A stretch of 64,000 nucleotides of DNA from Longimicrobiales bacterium (lineage in GTDB: Bacteria; Gemmatimonadota; Gemmatimonadetes; Longimicrobiales; Gaopeijiaceae), in NCBI GenBank assembly GCA_965202805.1, contig OZ241869.1, forward strand, positions 2,176,001 to 2,240,000. The letters run 5' to 3'. The position numbers are program-made. Below, piece after piece: positions 15,001 to 30,000 of the stretch (the stretch's first letter is position 1; each line of letters starts with the position of its first letter).

Positions 15001-18000
15001 GGGGCAGCCGGGAACCCAGCTCCACCTGCCCGGGACCCGCGGTTACCAGCAGCGCCGGGTAGAGCCGCACCATCTCGCGCTTCTGTCCCGCCCCCCCGAG
15101 TCCCACGGCTGTGAACGCTCCGCCGTACCACCCCTCAAACTGGATCTTGAAGCCCAGCACGTCGCCACCACCCCCGAAGCTCACGTTAAAGAAACGCTCG
15201 TCGCCGAAGTCGCTTCCGTCCTCCTTCGCCTCACGCCAGCGGTAGCCGGCCCAGCCCTGCGCATAGAAGGGCCGCGGCCAGAAGGAGTGTCCCACCTCCG
15301 CCAGCACTTCCCAGTCGCGCTGACCGTCCCCCAGCGGGATGAGGTTGGTTCCGGATTCGAAATTGGTGGGAAGCTTGGTGCCTGCACGGATGGCGAAGGG
15401 GAAGTCGCTGCCCAGAAGCCGCAGCGGAGCCGTGCGCACGTACACGCGGGTATCGCCGAATCCCCACGAAATACGGGTGCCTTCAAGGTTGGCGAACTCG
15501 AGGCGGTGGTAGGACGGCTGAACCCAGATGTCCACGCCGGGAGCGATGCCCATCGCGATCGTCAGGAAGGAGGACGCCGTCTGCGCGTGACCGTCCAGAA
15601 CGATATCGCGGACGTCGCCGGTGGGGCTGAATTCTTCGCGGGTGTCGAGATAGTACATCGCGAAGGAGGCCCACCCCTGGCGCTCGGGCTCAATCCACTG
15701 ACCGCGTACCGGCGAGGCCAGGAGCGAGAGCGTGAGAGCCGCCAGGGCGAGGCCGCGATGGATGACCGGGGCGTGTATCGATTGAGTCATGGCGTATCGT
15801 GCGACGCTGTATGGGGAGTGGAAGGCTCGGCCGGTTTGCGCCCGACCGGGTGAACGGGCCGCTGGCCGGGTGAAAGGGCCGTCGTCGGCCGCTCTGCCGC
15901 AAAACAGGGGCACAATCCGTGCCACGGTGGATGGCGGGTCACGTCTCCGCCCGTAACCTTACAAAATAGCCGATCACCAGCGTGTTGCCAGCCGGCAGGT
16001 TGGTGCCGCGCACCGGAATCTGCACTCCGGCCTTCGCCGAACCCGCCCCCAGCCGGTAGCTGACTGAAGGCGTAAGGCGCAGCATCGAACGGGACGCCGT
16101 GGCGATCGAGAGTCCCTCGATGACCGGAACGCCGCCGTCCCAGCCTTCGGCGATGAGGCTCGCCCCAAGGCGCCCGAATTCGGTTCCGCCGGAGAGCAGG
16201 AAGAACACCTCATCGCCGAAGTCCCTCCGCGACTCCAGGTTCTCCTCCCGCCAGCGATGGCCGATCCAGGCGCTCACATACGCGGGTACGGGATAGAAGG
16301 AATGGCCCAGCTCGAGAACCAGCTCCCAGTCTCTTTGTCCGTCTCCGAGCGGAATGACTTCGGCATCCACGGCGAAATCGCCGACGGGGACCTTCGCCCC
16401 GCCCCTGATCGCCAACGGGAACCCGCTGCCGAGATAGCGGCCGGGCTGTACGCGCAGGTAGAAGCGCGTGTCGCCGATGCCCGAGCGCAGCCGGTCGCCG
16501 CCCAGGTCGTCGAAGCGGAGGCGCTGGAACGGCACCTGCACCCAGGCGTCGACTCCGGGAACCAGCCCCATCGCGACCGTGGCGAACGCGGATGTGCTGA
16601 CCGCGTGCCCCTGCGTGAAGGGGTCGAAGGCCCTGATGTCACCGTCCGAGTGGAAGGCCTCTCGCGTGTCCAGGTGAAAGACCGAGACGTCCATCCAGCC
16701 CCGGCCGGGCGGCTCGACCCACTGGGCGCCCGCCTCTGTGACGCGGCCCGCCAGGATCATGGCCGTCATGAAAGCCGCAACGAGCAAGTCCCCCCCGGTC
16801 CGGGAGCGAGAGCCGGGGGATGCGGCAGGCCGGCTCCGCATCACGGACCGCTGATCTGGACCGTCACCGTGGCGGACTGCGAATCTCCGGCCACCGTGGA
16901 TACGGTCGCGCGCGCCACGTAGGTGCCGGGTTCCTCGTAGGCGTAGTCGAAGTGGCCAGCCTGTGTGTTGATGTTGACCGGCGCCCCGCCGGTGTAGATG
17001 AACGGGACTGTCTCCATTTCTCCCGTACCGTATTCCACCACGGTCTGGGACAGGTTGGTGCCCCGCGACTCGTAGCGGAACCGGATCTCCTGGCCCACGG
17101 CCGCGCTCTCCTGGCTCACGGTCAGGTTGACGGTCAGCGGCTGGGGCTCAAGGGGCGGGTTCAGGCACGAGACGAGGAAGAGCGTGCACGCTCCCGGCGC
17201 CAGGAGCCGATACCGGGGGAGCCTCCGGGCGGGCCATCCGCGAGATGCCCGGGGAACTGTGGAGCCGCGAGTCCCGCCCCTGCGACCGGCGGCCTCGGCG
17301 TGCGTGCTTCTCGCCGGAGCGGCGCCCTCGGCGGAACCGGGCATGGATTGGCTGAACATCGTAGACCTGCCTCTCTGTATTCCTTGGTCCGCGCGTGGTG
17401 GCGAACACATCTGTCGAAACCTATGTTAGTCGTAGGAAATTGTCTGCATCTCAGACCTGCGAGATCAGGCCGGTCCGACCGGGTGGTTTGTGTCCTCCCG
17501 GCGGGCCGGGCCGGTGGCGCATGTCCGCGATCCGGAGGCCACGGAATGAATGTACTCTATGGCGCCACGGCCGCCCTGGGCGTCGCCCTGCTGGTCGGAG
17601 CGAGCGGAAACGGCTTCTTGACGGACGCGCCGCCCGCTCCGGCACCTCCCGCGGCCCACACGGCCGCCGCCGCCGACCTCCCCGCCGCCACGCTCACCGA
17701 GGTGGTGGCCCGGTACTGCCAGGTCTGCCACAACGACGCCCTCCTGACCGGCAACATGACCCTGTCGGGCTTCCAGGTGGAGGCGGCCGCCCAGAACGCC
17801 GAAACCGCAGAGCGCATGATCCGCAAGCTGCGTGCCGGCATGATGCCCCCGCCCGGCATGCCCCGCCCCGCCGGCGACACCCTGCTGGCCCTGGTCGAGA
17901 CGCTCGAGAACACCATCGACGACGCCGCGCGCCGCAACCCCAACCCCGGAGGGCGCACCTTCCAGCGGCTCAACCGGGCGGAATACGCGCAGTCGGTAAA

Positions 18001-27000: not shown

Positions 27001-30000
27001 AACACCTTCCAGGCGGGGCAGCTCCCGTATCTCCTGCAGAAGCTGGAGGAGACGACGGAGGGCGACGGCACCCTGCTCGACAAGACGATGATCGTCTACG
27101 GCTCGCCGATGGCCGACGGCAACCTGCACAACCACCGCCGCTGCCCGCTCATCGTGCTGGGCGGCGCGAACGGGCGCCACGAAGGCGGGCTGCACCTGAA
27201 GGCTCCCGACGGCACCCCCATGGCCAACGTGATGTTGAGCATGCTGCACGCCCTGGGGCACGACGACAGGGACAGCTTCGGCGACAGCACGGGCGAGTTC
27301 CGGTTGAGCCCGCCGGCGGTGGTCGTCGAGGCTTCCAACCGGTCCGACCAGAGCGGCTGATGCGGTCGGGACGGAGGGTGTCCCGGCGGCGACGCGGGTT
27401 CCGGCTGGGTGCCGGGTCTGCCAGGAACGCGCTCCGGGCCATCGTGCCAGGGGAGTCCTCGCGGAGAGGCGGGTTCCGGCTGGGCGCGGGGGTTGTCGCG
27501 CTCCTGCTGTGGGCCGCCGCCCCCGCCGACTCGCCGGTGGCGGACGCGGCGATGCGGGGCGACGCGGAGGCCGTGGAGGCCCTGATCGCCCGGGGCGCGG
27601 ACGTGAACGTCGCCCAGGGCGATGGCATGACGGCGCTGCATTGGGCCGCGGAGCGGGCGGAAGCCGCGCTGGTCCGCATCCTGCTCGACGCCGGGGCGGA
27701 CGTCACCCCGGTCACGCGCATCGGCGACTACACTCCCCTGCACCTGGCCGCCAGGTCCGGAAGCGCGCCCGCGGTCGAGGCGCTGCTGGAGGCGGGCGGC
27801 AACCCTCGGGCGGTGACCGCCACCGGAGCCGTCACTCCCATGCACTTCGCGGCCGGCGCCGGGAACCCGGACGCGGTCGTCGCGCTTGCCCGCCACGGTG
27901 CCGACGTCGACGCCCGCGAGGCGGACCGGGGACAGACGCCGCTCATGTTCGCCGCGGCCAACGACCGGGTGGAGGCCGTGCGGGCTCTCCTGGAGCTGGG
28001 TGCCGACCTGACGCTCCGCACCCGGGTCGTGGACATCGTGGATCTCGCCGCCGTCGACCGCGAGGCGGGAGAGGCGCGGGACGCCGTACTGGAGGAGTTC
28101 CGGGCACAGGCGGCGGATCCGCGCACCTGGCGGCCGACCCCCGAACAGGTAAGGGTTGCGGTGCGCGCCGGGCACGAAGTGCAGCGTTCCCGCATGCAGG
28201 CCGCATCCGACCAGGAAGAGCCGGAAGCGGCCCCGGACGCCTTCCCCGGATACACCGGCCTGGTCGGCGCCCAGGGCGGGATGACGGCGCTCCTGCACGC
28301 GGTGCGCGAGGGGCACACCGAGACGGTCCTGGCCCTGCTCGACGCCGGCGCGGACATCAACGGCGTGAGCGGCGGCGACCACACCGGCCCGCTGCTGATG
28401 GCGACCATCAACGGCCACTTCGACCTGGCCATGACCCTGCTCGGCCGCGGGGCCGACCCGCGCATCGCCAGCGACGCGGGCGCCACCCCGCTGTACGGCG
28501 CGATCAACGCCTACTGGGTCCCGAAGTCCCGCTATCCGCAGCAGCAGGCGTACCAGCAGCAGCAGACGACATACCTGGAGCTGATGGAGGCACTGCTGGA
28601 AGCGGGCGCCGATCCCAACGCGCGCCTGACCCGGCACCTCTGGTACATGTCCTACACCTTCGACCTGCTGCGGGTGGACACCCAGGGAGCCACGCCCTTC
28701 TGGCGAGCCGCCTACGGGACCGACGTGGAGGCGATGAAGCTGCTGGTGGCGTACGGCGCCGATCCGTCGATTCCGACCATGAAGCCGCCCGCGCGGCGAA
28801 GGGGCGACGCGGACGCGGAGGATCCGTCAGGGCTGCCGCCCGTTCCGGTAGGTGGGCCCGGAGTATACCCGATTCACGCCGCTTCGGGCGTGGGGTACGG
28901 AGAGGGCTTCGCGGGGAACTCGCACCGGCATGCGCCCGACGGCTGGCTGCCGTCCGTGCGCTACCTGGTGGAGGAACTGGGGGTCGACGTCAACGCCCGC
29001 GATCACAACGGATACAACGCCGTTCATCATGCCGCCTCACGCGGCGATGTCGAGCTCATCCACTACCTGACCGGGCACGGCGCGGACGTCATGGCGGTCA
29101 GCCGGAGGGGACAGACGACGGCCGACATGGCGAACGGCCCGTATCAGCGGACCCAGCCCTTCCCGGAGGCGCTGTCGCTGCTGGAGAGCCTCGGGGCGCA
29201 CAACAACGACAACTGCGTGTCCTGCTGACCGGGTCATCCGGCCGTCCCGCCGATCAGGCCCCGCCCCTCTCCTCCAGCAGGCGCTCGAACTCTTCGCGGC
29301 GCTCCTGGTCCAGGCTGACCTCGAGGGTGAAGAGCTGGTACTCCTCCTGGGACATCCCGTGGGTCTCGTAGATCTCGGTGAGCCTCTGGTCCATCTCGGA
29401 ACGCAGTTCCTCCTTGCCGGGATCGTCGTGGACCACGGCGATCGCCTGGTTGAACTCCTCGCGGGCCTCAACCACCTCGATGTGCACCTGAACGAAGAGC
29501 ATGAAGCGCTCGTCGCTTGTGCCTGCCGCCGGTGCTTCCTCCTGCTGGCCGTGGAGGGCCGTGGGTCCGATGGTGAACAGAGAGGCAAGCGCCAGCAGAC
29601 CGCCCAAAACCGTGAGTCTCGGGGCCTTTCTCATCGCAGATACTCTCCTTCCGGCTACGCCTTGTCCAGGCACGGATACATGTCGACCGGGGTACGACGG
29701 GCCAGGGCTCAGGACGCCCTGCCGACGCGACCAACGTTCTATATTATCTCCTCCGGACTCGTCCGGAAACAAGCCCCGGTTGCGTGGACTGCCGCGGATG
29801 ATGATCTTGGGCCGGACCGTTCCTTGCAGGAAGGGCGGTATTGGCGATGGCGCCGTTACGGGAGCGAGGCGATGCCCGTCTACGAGTATGTATGCAACGA
29901 TTGCGGGAAGGAGTTCGAGGTACTGCTGCTGAGGAAGGAGACGGCGGCCTGCCCCTCATGCGGAAGTGGCGACCTGAAGCGCCTCCTGTCCGTACCCGGG

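What a model noticed while it worked through the whole genome (the two positions that open the first line are those of the whole stretch)
17546..29228. Twelve exported ankyrin proteins are the third gene of PSCyt3/PSD - HXXSHH(DUF1552) - Ank modules, not free-standing euk [...]
Twelve of the 15 ankyrin-repeat proteins of this genome are the last gene of a repeated three-gene module: a ~820-aa dihaem 'planctomycete cytochrome' protein (PSCyt3+PSD2-5), a ~475-aa Tat-signal HXXSHH/DUF1552 protein and a ~600-aa ankyrin protein with a Sec signal peptide, a shared N-terminus (PPDSPVADAAMRGD) and a C-terminal NNxNCxxC tail. Two modules stand in tandem at C1:2193546-2205228 (g01743-g01748); the others are g01058/61/62, g01082-84, g01316-18, g01447-49, g01710-12, g01721-23, g01731-33, g02234-36, g02379-81, g02794/95/98. 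The ankyrin gene is a conserved member of this periplasmic module in thousands of genomes, and the middle protein has a sulfatase/alkaline-phosphatase fold, [...]
Evidence so far: pfam.tsv and gene order: 12 HXXSHH genes, each followed by an Ank gene on the same strand; 10 preceded directly by a PSD gene, 2 with SusC/SusD between. 11 of 12 HXXSHH have RRxF[LIV] in the first 30 aa; all 12 PSD proteins have 2 CxxCH; 11 of 12 module Ank proteins have a hydrophobic N-terminal segment and 10 of 12 end in NNxNCxxC, whereas 2 of the 3 non-module Ank proteins (g00555, g02746) have neither. Paralogue alignments: HXXSHH 55-68% id., Ank 46-59% id.; AlphaFold model of g01745: ankyrin solenoid, pLDDT 80. 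AlphaFold model of HXXSHH g01744 from a 67-sequence alignment: pLDDT 87, pTM 0.90; against 48,161 PDB representatives its best matches are all alkaline-phosphatase-superfamily enz [...]
(Added by a program. Inside this text positions count along the whole contig: contig position 2,176,001 is position 1 of the stretch shown here. "Call 12" and the like, gene names such as g00115 and contig names such as C1 are that model's own, and its searches are not shown. The text may have been shortened before it was handed on; [...] marks where a part breaks off. The agent that wrote the report below was given it as the finding of a first reader that could run no searches.)

Follow-up and report, generated by a model that had tools for sequence, protein, structure and literature searches.

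The report
Ankyrin third gene of periplasmic modules
Most ankyrin-repeat genes of this marine bacterium are not stand-alone "eukaryote-like" genes: each is the conserved third gene of a repeated, exported cytochrome-plus-hydrolase-like gene set of unknown chemistry, which changes how such genes in symbiont genomes should be read.

Summary
The genome (Gemmatimonadota by nearest named record) carries 12 PSCyt3/PSD dihaem genes, 12 HXXSHH/DUF1552 genes and 15 ankyrin loci. Twelve ankyrin genes lie -4 to 83 bp behind an HXXSHH gene on the same strand. The window holds three modules, not two.

The link extends far beyond this genome:
- In 401 genomes of the phylum, both families occur in 113, one alone in 2, neither in 286.
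- All 20 loci fetched from other genera show PSD-HXXSHH-Ank.
- 34 of 35 HXXSHH genes in five genomes have an ankyrin gene beside the pair.
- 58 of 67 evaluable loci, mostly Acidobacteriota, do too.

It is not universal. A planctomycete-type clade (0 of 80 loci), a Bacteroidota plasmid and one Bryobacteraceae-type clade lack it.

HXXSHH has an alkaline-phosphatase/sulfatase fold (Z 17). PSD has a cytochrome c domain and a CBM6/35/36-like sandwich (Z 9.8). SusC/SusD or MFS genes sit inside or beside 4 of 12 modules.

Best reading: a periplasmic accessory subunit of a nutrient-processing redox module, not a host effector. Binding and chemistry remain untested.

The parts
1825..4266 (+). PSD7: PSCyt3/PSD dihaem protein of a third module in the window (813 aa)
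   Evidence: tblastn 58% identical to PSD8; start picked by rule; two CxxCH
4336..5766 (+). HX7: HXXSHH/DUF1552 protein with RRTFL twin-arginine motif (476 aa)
5783..7573 (+). ANK7: exported ankyrin protein, tail NNHNCISC (596 aa)
17546..19972 (+). PSD8: N-terminal signal-like segment, cytochrome c domain (CQVCH at 58), CBM6/35/36-like beta-sandwich (about 205-360), helical PSD5/PSD4/PSCyt3/PSD2 part with second haem motif (CQACH at 679)
   Evidence: Pfam; model pLDDT 88; VIA-align Z 9.8 to CBM36/xylanase module and Z 7.5 to the YhjA cytochrome domain
20003..21430 (+). HX8: Tat-signal (RRTFL) HXXSHH/DUF1552 protein with alkaline-phosphatase/sulfatase fold (475 aa)
   Evidence: Pfam PF07586, E 7e-85; model pLDDT 84.5; Foldseek and VIA-align hits all of the alkaline-phosphatase superfamily
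21498..23255 (+). ANK8: Sec-signal-like N-terminus, conserved PPDSPVADAAMRGD start of the mature part, ankyrin repeats, tail NNNNCQSC (585 aa)
23287..25842 (+). PSD9: second dihaem PSCyt3/PSD protein of the tandem pair (GTG start by rule; a later start at 23416 is possible)
25927..27360 (+). HX9: HXXSHH/DUF1552 protein with RRTFL motif (477 aa)
27444..29228 (+). ANK9: exported ankyrin protein, tail NNDNCVSC (GTG start by rule; an ATG at 27366 is possible)

Best explanation
The three genes form one inherited functional unit that works outside the cytoplasm.

Shown:
- The dihaem PSCyt3/PSD protein and the ankyrin protein carry Sec-type N-terminal hydrophobic segments.
- The DUF1552 protein carries a twin-arginine motif.
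- The three genes stay together across two phyla and have diverged as a set.

Inferred:
- All three proteins meet in the periplasm.
- The ankyrin solenoid is an accessory subunit (adaptor or stabiliser) that binds the haem protein and/or the DUF1552 protein. The precedent is AnkB, which supports the periplasmic haem catalase KatB.
- The module processes an organic substrate taken up through TonB-dependent/SusCD outer-membrane transporters. PSD would hold the substrate with its CBM-like sandwich and pass electrons through its two c haems. The alkaline-phosphatase-fold DUF1552 protein would do the bond chemistry at a His-rich site. Products would go on to inner-membrane MFS carriers.
- The two invariant C-terminal cysteines of the window's subfamily most likely form a disulphide loop that shapes the tail.

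On this reading the ankyrin proteins are not effectors aimed at a host.
For: Linkage:
- 12 of 12 HXXSHH genes in the genome are followed by an Ank gene at -4 to 83 bp.
- The same five-module spacing recurs in a genome of the same genus.
- Among 401 phylum genomes, both families occur in 113, HXXSHH alone in 1, Ank alone in 1 (weak, 2e-50), neither in 286. The one 'HXXSHH only' genome does carry a shorter Ank beside both HXXSHH genes.
- 20 of 20 loci from other genera and families are colinear.
- 34 of 35 HXXSHH hits in five genomes have an Ank-profile hit separated at most by the PSD gene.
- 58 of 67 evaluable loci outside the phylum have Ank adjacent, as does a Novosphingobium plasmid.
- On the HXXSHH tree the Ank-less rows are the outgroups plus one starred clade.

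Unit-wise divergence: paralogue distance matrices correlate. HX-Ank r=0.76 (1 of 5000 permutations reach it), PSD-HX 0.65 (0 of 5000), PSD-Ank 0.50 (25 of 5000).

Export signals. Many Acidobacteriota Ank also have N-terminal hydrophobic segments.

Folds:
- HXXSHH: Z 17.0, rmsd 4.4 A, 282 aligned to a sulfatase. All 50 listed rows belong to the alkaline-phosphatase superfamily.
- PSD: Z 9.8, rmsd 2.8 A, 106 aligned to CBM36-type modules, and Z 7.5 to a cytochrome c peroxidase haem domain.

Context:
- Module 1 reads PSD-SusC-SusD-HX-Ank on one strand. SusD precedes HX12. MFS transporters follow ANK2 and ANK10 on the same strand.
- Cytochrome c', cytochrome c, a TonB receptor and a molybdopterin oxidoreductase lie between the window's modules.

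Literature:
- A Cellvibrio DUF1592 protein with CBM2 is listed in a lignocellulose proteome table (PMC6004670, passage).
- AnkB is required for KatB activity (PMC12754779, passages and reference list).
Against: - No test of binding gave an answer.
- The planctomycete-type clade, a Bacteroidota plasmid and a Bryobacteraceae-type clade run PSD-HXXSHH without any Ank. The core chemistry therefore does not need it.
- In 15 of the 58 Ank-bearing loci outside the phylum the Ank gene is divergent from PSD, so it is not co-transcribed there.
- The CxxC tail is confined to the window's subfamily. Shorter Ank of the canonical subfamily lack it.
- A Sec signal does not exclude onward secretion.
- Ankyrin proteins of sponge symbionts altered phagocytosis when expressed in E. 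coli, as cited in PMC8163846 (passage).
- Catalytic residues of HXXSHH were not mapped. No invariant Ser, Thr or Cys is present among 110 sequences. Non-catalytic members of this fold (YejM/PbgA) are among the matches.
- Signal peptides were judged by hydropathy only.
Confidence: 0.6

Rival explanations
1. The ankyrin proteins are eukaryote-like effectors released to a sponge or coral host to alter phagocytosis. Their place beside PSD-HXXSHH reflects shared regulation or chance.
For: - Sponge-associated Gemmatimonadota and Acidobacteriota are reported to be rich in ankyrin genes, and such proteins altered phagocytosis in a heterologous test (PMC8163846, passages).
- Contigs 95-99% like the window occur in runs labelled coral and sponge metatranscriptome.
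- The proteins carry export signals.
Against: - Adjacency is kept in two phyla, including lineages whose record titles name soil- and lake-type Acidobacteriota MAGs.
- Presence and absence match HXXSHH in 399 of 401 genomes.
- Profile scores above 800 bits across five families show old vertical inheritance, not recent gain.
- Matches to Legionella T4SS ankyrin effector models lie far below their cut-offs (106 against 600 bits).
- The cited paper itself notes that few sponge MAGs encode suitable secretion systems.
Confidence: 0.1
2. The ankyrin protein is a dedicated maturation factor, not a lasting subunit. It would hold apo-PSD for haem attachment or keep its CxxCH cysteines reduced through the C-terminal CxxC, or escort the Tat-exported HXXSHH protein.
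For: - One Ank goes with each PSD/HXXSHH paralogue, with correlated divergence.
- The Cys pair is invariant in 29 long-type Ank from five families.
- AnkB is needed for full activity of a periplasmic haem enzyme.
Against: - The shorter Ank of the canonical subfamily and of Acidobacteriota lack a CxxC tail.
- ANK1 and ANK4 space the cysteines by 11 residues. That suits a disulphide loop better than a redox-active CxxC.
- Ank-less clades mature the same haem protein.
Confidence: 0.15
3. Sox-like relay. The C-terminal cysteine tail of Ank carries a substrate fragment covalently, on a flexible arm, between the dihaem PSD (oxidative attachment) and the alkaline-phosphatase-fold HXXSHH (hydrolytic release). 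This would resemble SoxY between SoxXA and SoxB.
For: - The part list is parallel: a dihaem c cytochrome, a Tat-exported hydrolase-fold protein, and a third protein with invariant cysteines at its very C-terminus.
- A sulfite-oxidase-family molybdoprotein gene and c-type cytochrome genes lie between the window's modules.
- The Sox scheme itself is recalled from memory, not taken from a call.
Against: - The tail is missing from most Ank-bearing modules outside this subfamily.
- ANK1 and ANK4 bury the cysteines about 25-45 residues from the C-terminus.
- There is no sequence or fold link to SoxY, SoxXA or SoxB.
- The SusCD, MFS, esterase and glycoside-hydrolase neighbours point to organic substrates.
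Confidence: 0.07

Closest known systems
PSCyt3/PSD (DUF1587/1592/1595/1588/1585) plus DUF1552 gene pairs of Planctomycetota and Verrucomicrobiota
   Same: Same two Pfam architectures in the same order, PSD then DUF1552. The pairing is noted in He et al. 2017 (PMC5615132, passages) and seen on a Planctomyces plasmid. Function is stated there as unknown, with a suspected role in carbohydrate use.
   Different: Here, and in a large clade of Gemmatimonadota and Acidobacteriota, a third gene for an exported ankyrin protein belongs to the set. That paper does not contain the word ankyrin. The planctomycete-type loci have none.
katB-ankB: periplasmic ankyrin protein AnkB needed for catalase KatB activity (Pseudomonas aeruginosa, Myxococcus xanthus)
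   Same: A bacterial ankyrin protein encoded in one operon with an exported haem enzyme and acting on that enzyme, not on a host (PMC12754779, passages and its reference 56).
   Different: No family membership was tested. AnkB is, from recall, a much smaller protein. The partner here is a dihaem PSCyt3 protein plus an alkaline-phosphatase-fold protein, not a catalase. Twelve copies per genome.
Alkaline-phosphatase superfamily (S1 sulfatases, NPPs, PafA, LtaS, EptA/MCR-1, YejM)
   Same: The predicted fold of HXXSHH matches over about 250-280 residues, Z 13-17. Foldseek gives 49 hits at E<=0.001.
   Different: About 10% identity. No Pfam Sulfatase hit even at E<=10. No sequence-level hit to any solved chain. 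No invariant Ser, Thr or Cys nucleophile; instead invariant H120, D148, H340 and H344.
Ankyrin 'eukaryote-like proteins' of sponge symbionts
   Same: Ankyrin repeats and an export signal, in a lineage counted as ankyrin-rich in sponge MAG surveys (PMC8163846, passages).
   Different: Fixed genomic partnership with two periplasmic redox/hydrolase-type genes, and presence in non-host lineages. No host-directed activity is known for this family.
SusC/SusD-type polysaccharide utilisation loci
   Same: Module 1 has SusC and SusD inside the operon and module 12 follows SusD. PSD carries a CBM6/35/36-like sandwich. Glycoside hydrolases and esterases neighbour Acidobacteriota modules.
   Different: 10 of 12 modules have no SusC/SusD beside them. 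No glycoside hydrolase lies in the window's modules.

Membership tests
Pfam PF07586 HXXSHH (DUF1552) | Profile match above the gathering score (30 bits) | tested here: met
   285.7 and 288.2 bits for HX8 and HX9. 12 matches over the cut-off in the genome.
Pfam PF07586 HXXSHH (DUF1552) | HxxSHH motif | tested here: met
   11 of 12 paralogues by regex (HX5 departs). H340 and H344 are invariant and H345 is in at least 90% of 110 sequences.
PSCyt3/PSD planctomycete-type cytochrome proteins | PSD3, PSD5, PSD4, PSCyt3 and PSD2 domains above cut-off, and haem c motifs | tested here: met
   All five domains are above cut-off in PSD8 and PSD9. Two CxxCH in 12 of 12. Both motifs are invariant in 82 sequences. 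Haem binding itself was not tested.
Ankyrin repeat proteins | Several Ank repeat matches above cut-off | tested here: met
   Ank, Ank_2, Ank_3, Ank_4 and Ank_5 at 127-187 bits.
Alkaline-phosphatase superfamily | Shared alpha/beta core fold | tested here: met
   Z 17.0 (rmsd 4.4 A, 282 aligned). All 50 listed rows belong to the superfamily. The model is predicted, pLDDT 84.5.
Alkaline-phosphatase superfamily | Metal ligands and a Ser/Thr/formylglycine nucleophile at the conserved core positions | tested here: inconclusive
   No residue-level superposition was possible with these tools. No invariant Ser, Thr or Cys among 110 sequences; invariant His and Asp are present.
S1 formylglycine sulfatases | Pfam Sulfatase profile match and the C/S-x-P-x-R signature | tested here: not met
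   No Sulfatase family match at E<=10 for two HXXSHH proteins. I saw no C/S-x-P-x-R in the HX8 sequence when reading it.
Legionella-type Dot/Icm ankyrin effectors (NCBIfam AnkY, AnkH, AnkX and others) | Score above the equivalog cut-off | tested here: not met
   Best score 106 bits against a cut-off of 600. The matches cover repeats only.
Anti-phage defence systems (PADLOC) | Matches of the module's proteins to defence-system models | tested here: not met
   PSD and HXXSHH have no match. Ank matches repeat-bearing models only.
AnkB (KatB-associated periplasmic ankyrin) | Homology to AnkB beyond generic repeats; a catalase partner | not tested
   No AnkB sequence was at hand, and no catalase lies beside the modules. 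Used as a working analogy only.
Sox thiosulfate-oxidising system | SoxY carrier with a C-terminal GGCGG motif; SoxXA; SoxB | not tested
   Features are recalled, not searched. The tail here is NNxNCxxC. Analogy only.

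The most novel reading that the evidence does not exclude
The ankyrin protein is a covalent carrier. Its invariant C-terminal cysteines hold a substrate-derived group on a flexible tail and shuttle it between the dihaem PSCyt3 protein and the alkaline-phosphatase-fold DUF1552 protein. That would make it a Sox-like relay built on an ankyrin scaffold, and the first catalytic-cycle role for a bacterial ankyrin protein.
Probability: 0.07. Interest if true: 0.85.

Novelty: new variant of a known kind. Interest (0 to 1): 0.62.

Why it matters
PSCyt/PSD-DUF1552 pairs are among the most repeated gene sets of unknown function in Planctomycetota, Verrucomicrobiota, Acidobacteriota and Gemmatimonadota. 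A third, tightly linked partner gives a new handle for biochemistry, such as co-purification and structures.

It also bears on a common inference in symbiosis genomics. Ankyrin gene counts are read as signs of host manipulation. In this genome, 12 of 15 ankyrin genes belong to a periplasmic metabolic module that also occurs in lineages named as soil and lake MAGs. Ankyrin 'enrichment' in Gemmatimonadota and Acidobacteriota may therefore largely count copies of this module.

That can be tested directly. Ask, over all MAGs, what share of ankyrin genes lie beside PF07586.

Tried and rejected
- **Complex prediction.** HX8 (31-475) with ANK8 (37-585), both as alignments, scored 0.00 in two runs. 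The verdict was 'no answer', so it counts neither way. PSD with Ank could not be tried, because only one job was allowed.
- **Fused HXXSHH+Ank and PSD+HXXSHH+Ank proteins as Rosetta-stone evidence.** 21 long proteins were found. I read three of them. One keeps the Ank signal peptide in the joint and two have out-of-frame joints. They are merged neighbours, not true fusions.
- **Shared upstream motif.** No 10-mer is shared by more than 2 of the 12 regions 250 bp upstream of PSD.
- **Sequence-level search of solved structures** with an HXXSHH profile: only chance-level rows, best E 0.068.
- **NCBIfam:** nothing for PSD or HXXSHH.
- **PADLOC:** no defence-system link.
- **RNA evidence.** Contigs from four runs labelled metatranscriptome lie on the stretch, mostly at 90-95% identity. 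Some bridge PSD8-HX8, ANK8-PSD9 and PSD9-HX9. The tool warns that DNA may be present in such libraries and that contigs do not show a transcript. No listed piece bridges HX8-ANK8. I do not use this as proof of expression or of an operon.
- **A first paper search with min_terms 1** was uninformative.
- **Automatic Ank labels on the HXXSHH tree** miss some true cases (for example L016, L069, L110) because split PSD hits shifted the block edge. The counts are the ones to use.
- **Wrong end for HX12.** My first value came from a tblastn hit that ran through the stop codon. It was corrected.

Full report
**What is there**

The stretch 17546-29228 holds six genes on the + strand in two tandem sets:
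- PSD8 17546-19972, HX8 20003-21430, ANK8 21498-23255;
- PSD9 23287-25842, HX9 25927-27360, ANK9 27444-29228.

Pfam gives three architectures:
- the first gene of each set has PSD3, PSD5, PSD4, PSCyt3 and PSD2;
- the second has PF07586 (HXXSHH/DUF1552, 286 and 288 bits);
- the third has many ankyrin repeat families.

NCBIfam names nothing for the first two. For the third it gives only sub-threshold repeat matches. A third set lies at 1825-7573 in the same window.

**The whole genome**

The genome is one contig of 4.02 Mb with 68% G+C. tblastn finds 12 PSD, 12 HXXSHH and 15 ankyrin loci. Twelve of the ankyrin loci lie directly behind an HXXSHH gene on the same strand.

With starts picked by a rule, the gaps are as follows:
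- HXXSHH to Ank: -4 to 83 bp in 12 of 12. HX12 is corrected to end at L009:3402, which gives 56 bp.
- PSD to HXXSHH: 6-122 bp in 10 of 12.

Two modules depart from the plain order:
- Module 1 reads PSD-SusC-SusD-HXXSHH-Ank on one strand.
- Module 12 reads SusD-HXXSHH-Ank, with PSD12 4.8 kb further on, past a gene on the other strand.

Five modules lie within 63 kb.

Motifs and termini:
- All 12 PSD have two CxxCH. Eleven of 12 HXXSHH have RRxF[LIV] at residue 11-13 and eleven have HxxSHH.
- All 12 module Ank have a hydrophobic N-terminal segment (12-residue hydropathy 2.2-3.1). The three other Ank score -0.75 to 0.58.
- Nine Ank end in NNxNCxxC and one in NNHLCVFC. Two (ANK1, ANK4) have C-x11-C followed by a Pro-rich extension.
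- The two cysteines are invariant, and in 9 of 12 they are the only cysteines of the protein.

The three paralogue sets have diverged together. Distance matrices correlate at r=0.76 for HX-Ank, 0.65 for PSD-HX and 0.50 for PSD-Ank. Of 5000 permutations, 1, 0 and 25 reach these values. This shows duplication and inheritance as a unit. It does not by itself show binding.

**Conservation inside the phylum**

The nearest named record is a Longimicrobiales MAG, so the phylum is Gemmatimonadota.
- All 12 sampled species of the genus hold 9-12 HXXSHH matches. One of them shows the same spacing of five neighbouring copies.
- In an even draw of 401 genomes of the phylum, a profile of the 12 Ank paralogues matches at E<=1e-40 in 114 genomes. 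PF07586 also matches in 114.
- Read side by side, the lists differ by two genomes. G155 has a weak Ank match only (2e-50). G226 has HXXSHH only.
- Both HXXSHH loci of G226 do carry a shorter, more distant ankyrin gene next to them.
- Twenty loci from other genera and four other families were fetched, 19 chosen by the Ank match and one by an HXXSHH match. All show PSD-HXXSHH-Ank in that order on one strand.
- In five genomes searched with both queries, 34 of 35 HXXSHH matches have an Ank-profile match separated at most by the PSD gene. The exception is a divergent HXXSHH (29% identity) with a truncated PSD.

A second, 'canonical' HXXSHH subfamily is about 43% identical to HX8. It goes with shorter Ank proteins of 450-540 aa that lack the cysteine tail. 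These lie downstream, upstream on the same strand, or divergently upstream of PSD.

**Conservation outside the phylum**

A scan of species-representative genomes with a mixed HXXSHH alignment kept 80 loci, 49-91% identical to a canonical Gemmatimonadota HXXSHH. Nearly all are from MAGs titled Acidobacteriota: Bryobacterales, Vicinamibacterales, Blastocatellia and others.

| Outcome among the 80 loci | Loci |
|---|---|
| No PSD-HXXSHH pair resolved | 3 |
| Flanks too short to judge | 10 |
| Evaluable | 67 |
| Evaluable, ankyrin gene beside the pair | 58 |
| Evaluable, no ankyrin gene | 9 |

The 58 split into 33 downstream, 10 upstream on the same strand and 15 divergent. L068 was added and L060 from Pfam. 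One of the nine without Ank, L087, has an unresolved 72-bit ankyrin-like hit.

In those nine, the neighbours include PF00756 esterases, Amidohydro_2, GH30 and GH44. A Novosphingobium plasmid also has PSD-HXXSHH-Ank.

The ankyrin gene is absent elsewhere:
- A Planctomyces plasmid reads DUF1587, DUF1592, DUF1552, DUF1080, and a Bacteroidota plasmid reads DUF1592, DUF1552. Neither has an ankyrin gene.
- 80 metagenome loci with HXXSHH 71-94% identical to the Planctomyces one hold no ankyrin-like hit in 606,586 bases. Of these, 44 have at least 1.8 kb downstream and 18 have room on both sides. These 80 form one narrow clade.

On a FastTree of 113 HXXSHH proteins, the Ank-less rows are the outgroups plus one well-supported clade of nine Bryobacteraceae-type rows. 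The window's subfamily is a long-branched clade of 29 rows inside the Ank-bearing part. The ankyrin gene is therefore an old member of one large HXXSHH clade, not of all PSCyt3-DUF1552 pairs.

**What the proteins look like**

- HXXSHH, modelled from 110 sequences, reaches pLDDT 84.5 and pTM 0.82.
- Foldseek gives 49 PDB hits at E<=0.001, led by sulfatases.
- The search that does not depend on Foldseek gives Z 17.0 (rmsd 4.4 A, 282 aligned). All 50 listed rows come from the alkaline-phosphatase superfamily: sulfatases, NPPs, PafA, LtaS, EptA/MCR-1, YejM and BcsG.
- There is no Pfam Sulfatase match and no sequence-level match to any solved chain.
- Invariant residues among the 110 sequences are H120, D148, Q149, W191, R205, R262, E265, R315, H340 and H344. 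No Ser, Thr or Cys is invariant.
- The usual nucleophile is therefore not evident, and catalysis is not shown.
- PSD, modelled from 82 sequences, reaches pLDDT 88 and pTM 0.88.
- Residues about 205-360 form a beta-sandwich like CBM36/35/6 modules (Z 9.8, rmsd 2.8 A, 106 aligned).
- Residues 46-129 resemble the cytochrome domain of peroxidase YhjA (Z 7.5).
- The helical remainder, with the second haem motif, found no match. It was not searched on its own.

**Context**

Between and after the window's modules lie genes for cytochrome c', an AhpC/TSA-like protein, a TonB-dependent receptor, a sulfite-oxidase-family molybdoprotein, a small cytochrome c, an amidohydrolase and a SusD/SusC pair. MFS transporter genes follow ANK2 and ANK10 on the same strand.

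Together with SusC/SusD in modules 1 and 12, this fits uptake across the outer membrane, periplasmic processing, and uptake across the inner membrane. It does not name the substrate.

**Mechanism**

Shown:
- three exported-type proteins;
- fixed gene partnership across two phyla;
- unit-wise divergence;
- the folds named above.

Inferred:
- the proteins meet in the periplasm;
- the ankyrin solenoid binds the haem protein and/or the DUF1552 protein as an adaptor or stabiliser;
- the module oxidises or cleaves an imported organic substrate;
- the C-terminal cysteine pair forms a disulphide loop.

The nearest precedent for an ankyrin protein serving an exported haem enzyme is AnkB with catalase KatB (PMC12754779, passages and its reference to Howell et al. 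2000).

The rivals are a host-directed effector, a maturation factor and a Sox-like cysteine carrier. They are set out with their evidence in the Rival explanations section.

**Literature**

- Three records in the library contain 'DUF1552', two of them versions of one paper. Sixteen contain DUF1592, DUF1588, DUF1501 or DUF1553.
- I read passages of four of these (PMC5615132, PMC2754498, PMC6004670, PMC7789669). None contains the word ankyrin.
- He et al. 2017 state that PSCyt3 genes usually sit next to a family of unknown genes and that nothing is known of their function. Its supplementary figures were not seen.
- Robbins et al. 2021 report ankyrin proteins at 0.25% of genes in sponge-associated Gemmatimonadota against 0.09% in seawater MAGs. 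They also note that few MAGs have suitable secretion systems (PMC8163846, passages).
- Databases name the window's family only 'ankyrin repeat domain-containing protein'.
- I found no description of the three-gene set in these searches. The library lacks most subscription journals.

**Verdict**

The three-gene set is a new variant of a known but uncharacterised two-gene module. Its main value is twofold. It gives a handle on that module, and it cautions against counting these ankyrin genes as host-manipulation genes.

Noticed in passing
window 1825-7573, and contig positions 2142331-2205228: The window holds a third module. With two more modules just upstream of the window, five lie within 63 kb. 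A genome of the same genus shows the same spacing of five HXXSHH copies.
   Followed up: partly
window 8448-14833: Between modules 7 and 8 lie genes for cytochrome c' (8448-8918, -), an AhpC/TSA-like protein (9200-9901, -), a TonB-dependent receptor (10447-12705, +) and a sulfite-oxidase-family molybdopterin protein (13730-14833, +). This is a periplasmic redox neighbourhood whose link to the modules is open.
   Followed up: no
L002:1727-4033 (-), ANK2: ANK2 (768 aa) carries two long acidic Asp/Glu/Gly-rich inserts in the linker regions of the solenoid, absent from the other 11 paralogues. Relatives in other genomes also show open frames of 700-1200 aa.
   Followed up: no
HX8 residues about 57-70 (window 20171-20212): The window's HXXSHH subfamily has an 8-residue insert with a Cys, and Glu/His in place of Tyr/Asn, right after the first beta-strand compared with the canonical subfamily. 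That is where alkaline-phosphatase-fold enzymes usually place a metal ligand (inference from the alignment and secondary structure only).
   Followed up: partly
L060, L066, L074, L098, L101 (Acidobacteriota loci): In the HXXSHH clade that lacks an ankyrin gene, PF00756 'putative esterase' or Amidohydro_2 genes sit next to the PSD-HXXSHH pair, as if another partner took the ankyrin gene's place.
   Followed up: partly
proteins P0127, P0129, P0142: Public gene calls that look like HXXSHH-ankyrin fusions are merged neighbours. One keeps the ankyrin signal peptide in the joint, and two have out-of-frame joints.
   Followed up: yes
L080, L100, L104, L033, L052 (ankyrin genes of other lineages): Several shorter ankyrin proteins also end with a pair of cysteines (C-x3-C to C-x6-C) close to the C-terminus, although their tails are otherwise unrelated to NNxNCxxC.
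   Followed up: no
window 52218-54605 (-): An open frame joins a pyridine-nucleotide-disulphide oxidoreductase domain to AIRS/AIRS_C domains (a selenophosphate-synthetase-like architecture).
   Followed up: no
window 16800-29600: Contigs 95-99% identical to parts of the stretch occur in runs labelled coral, sponge and marine metatranscriptome. Relatives of this organism therefore live in such samples. Transcription is not shown by contigs.
   Followed up: partly
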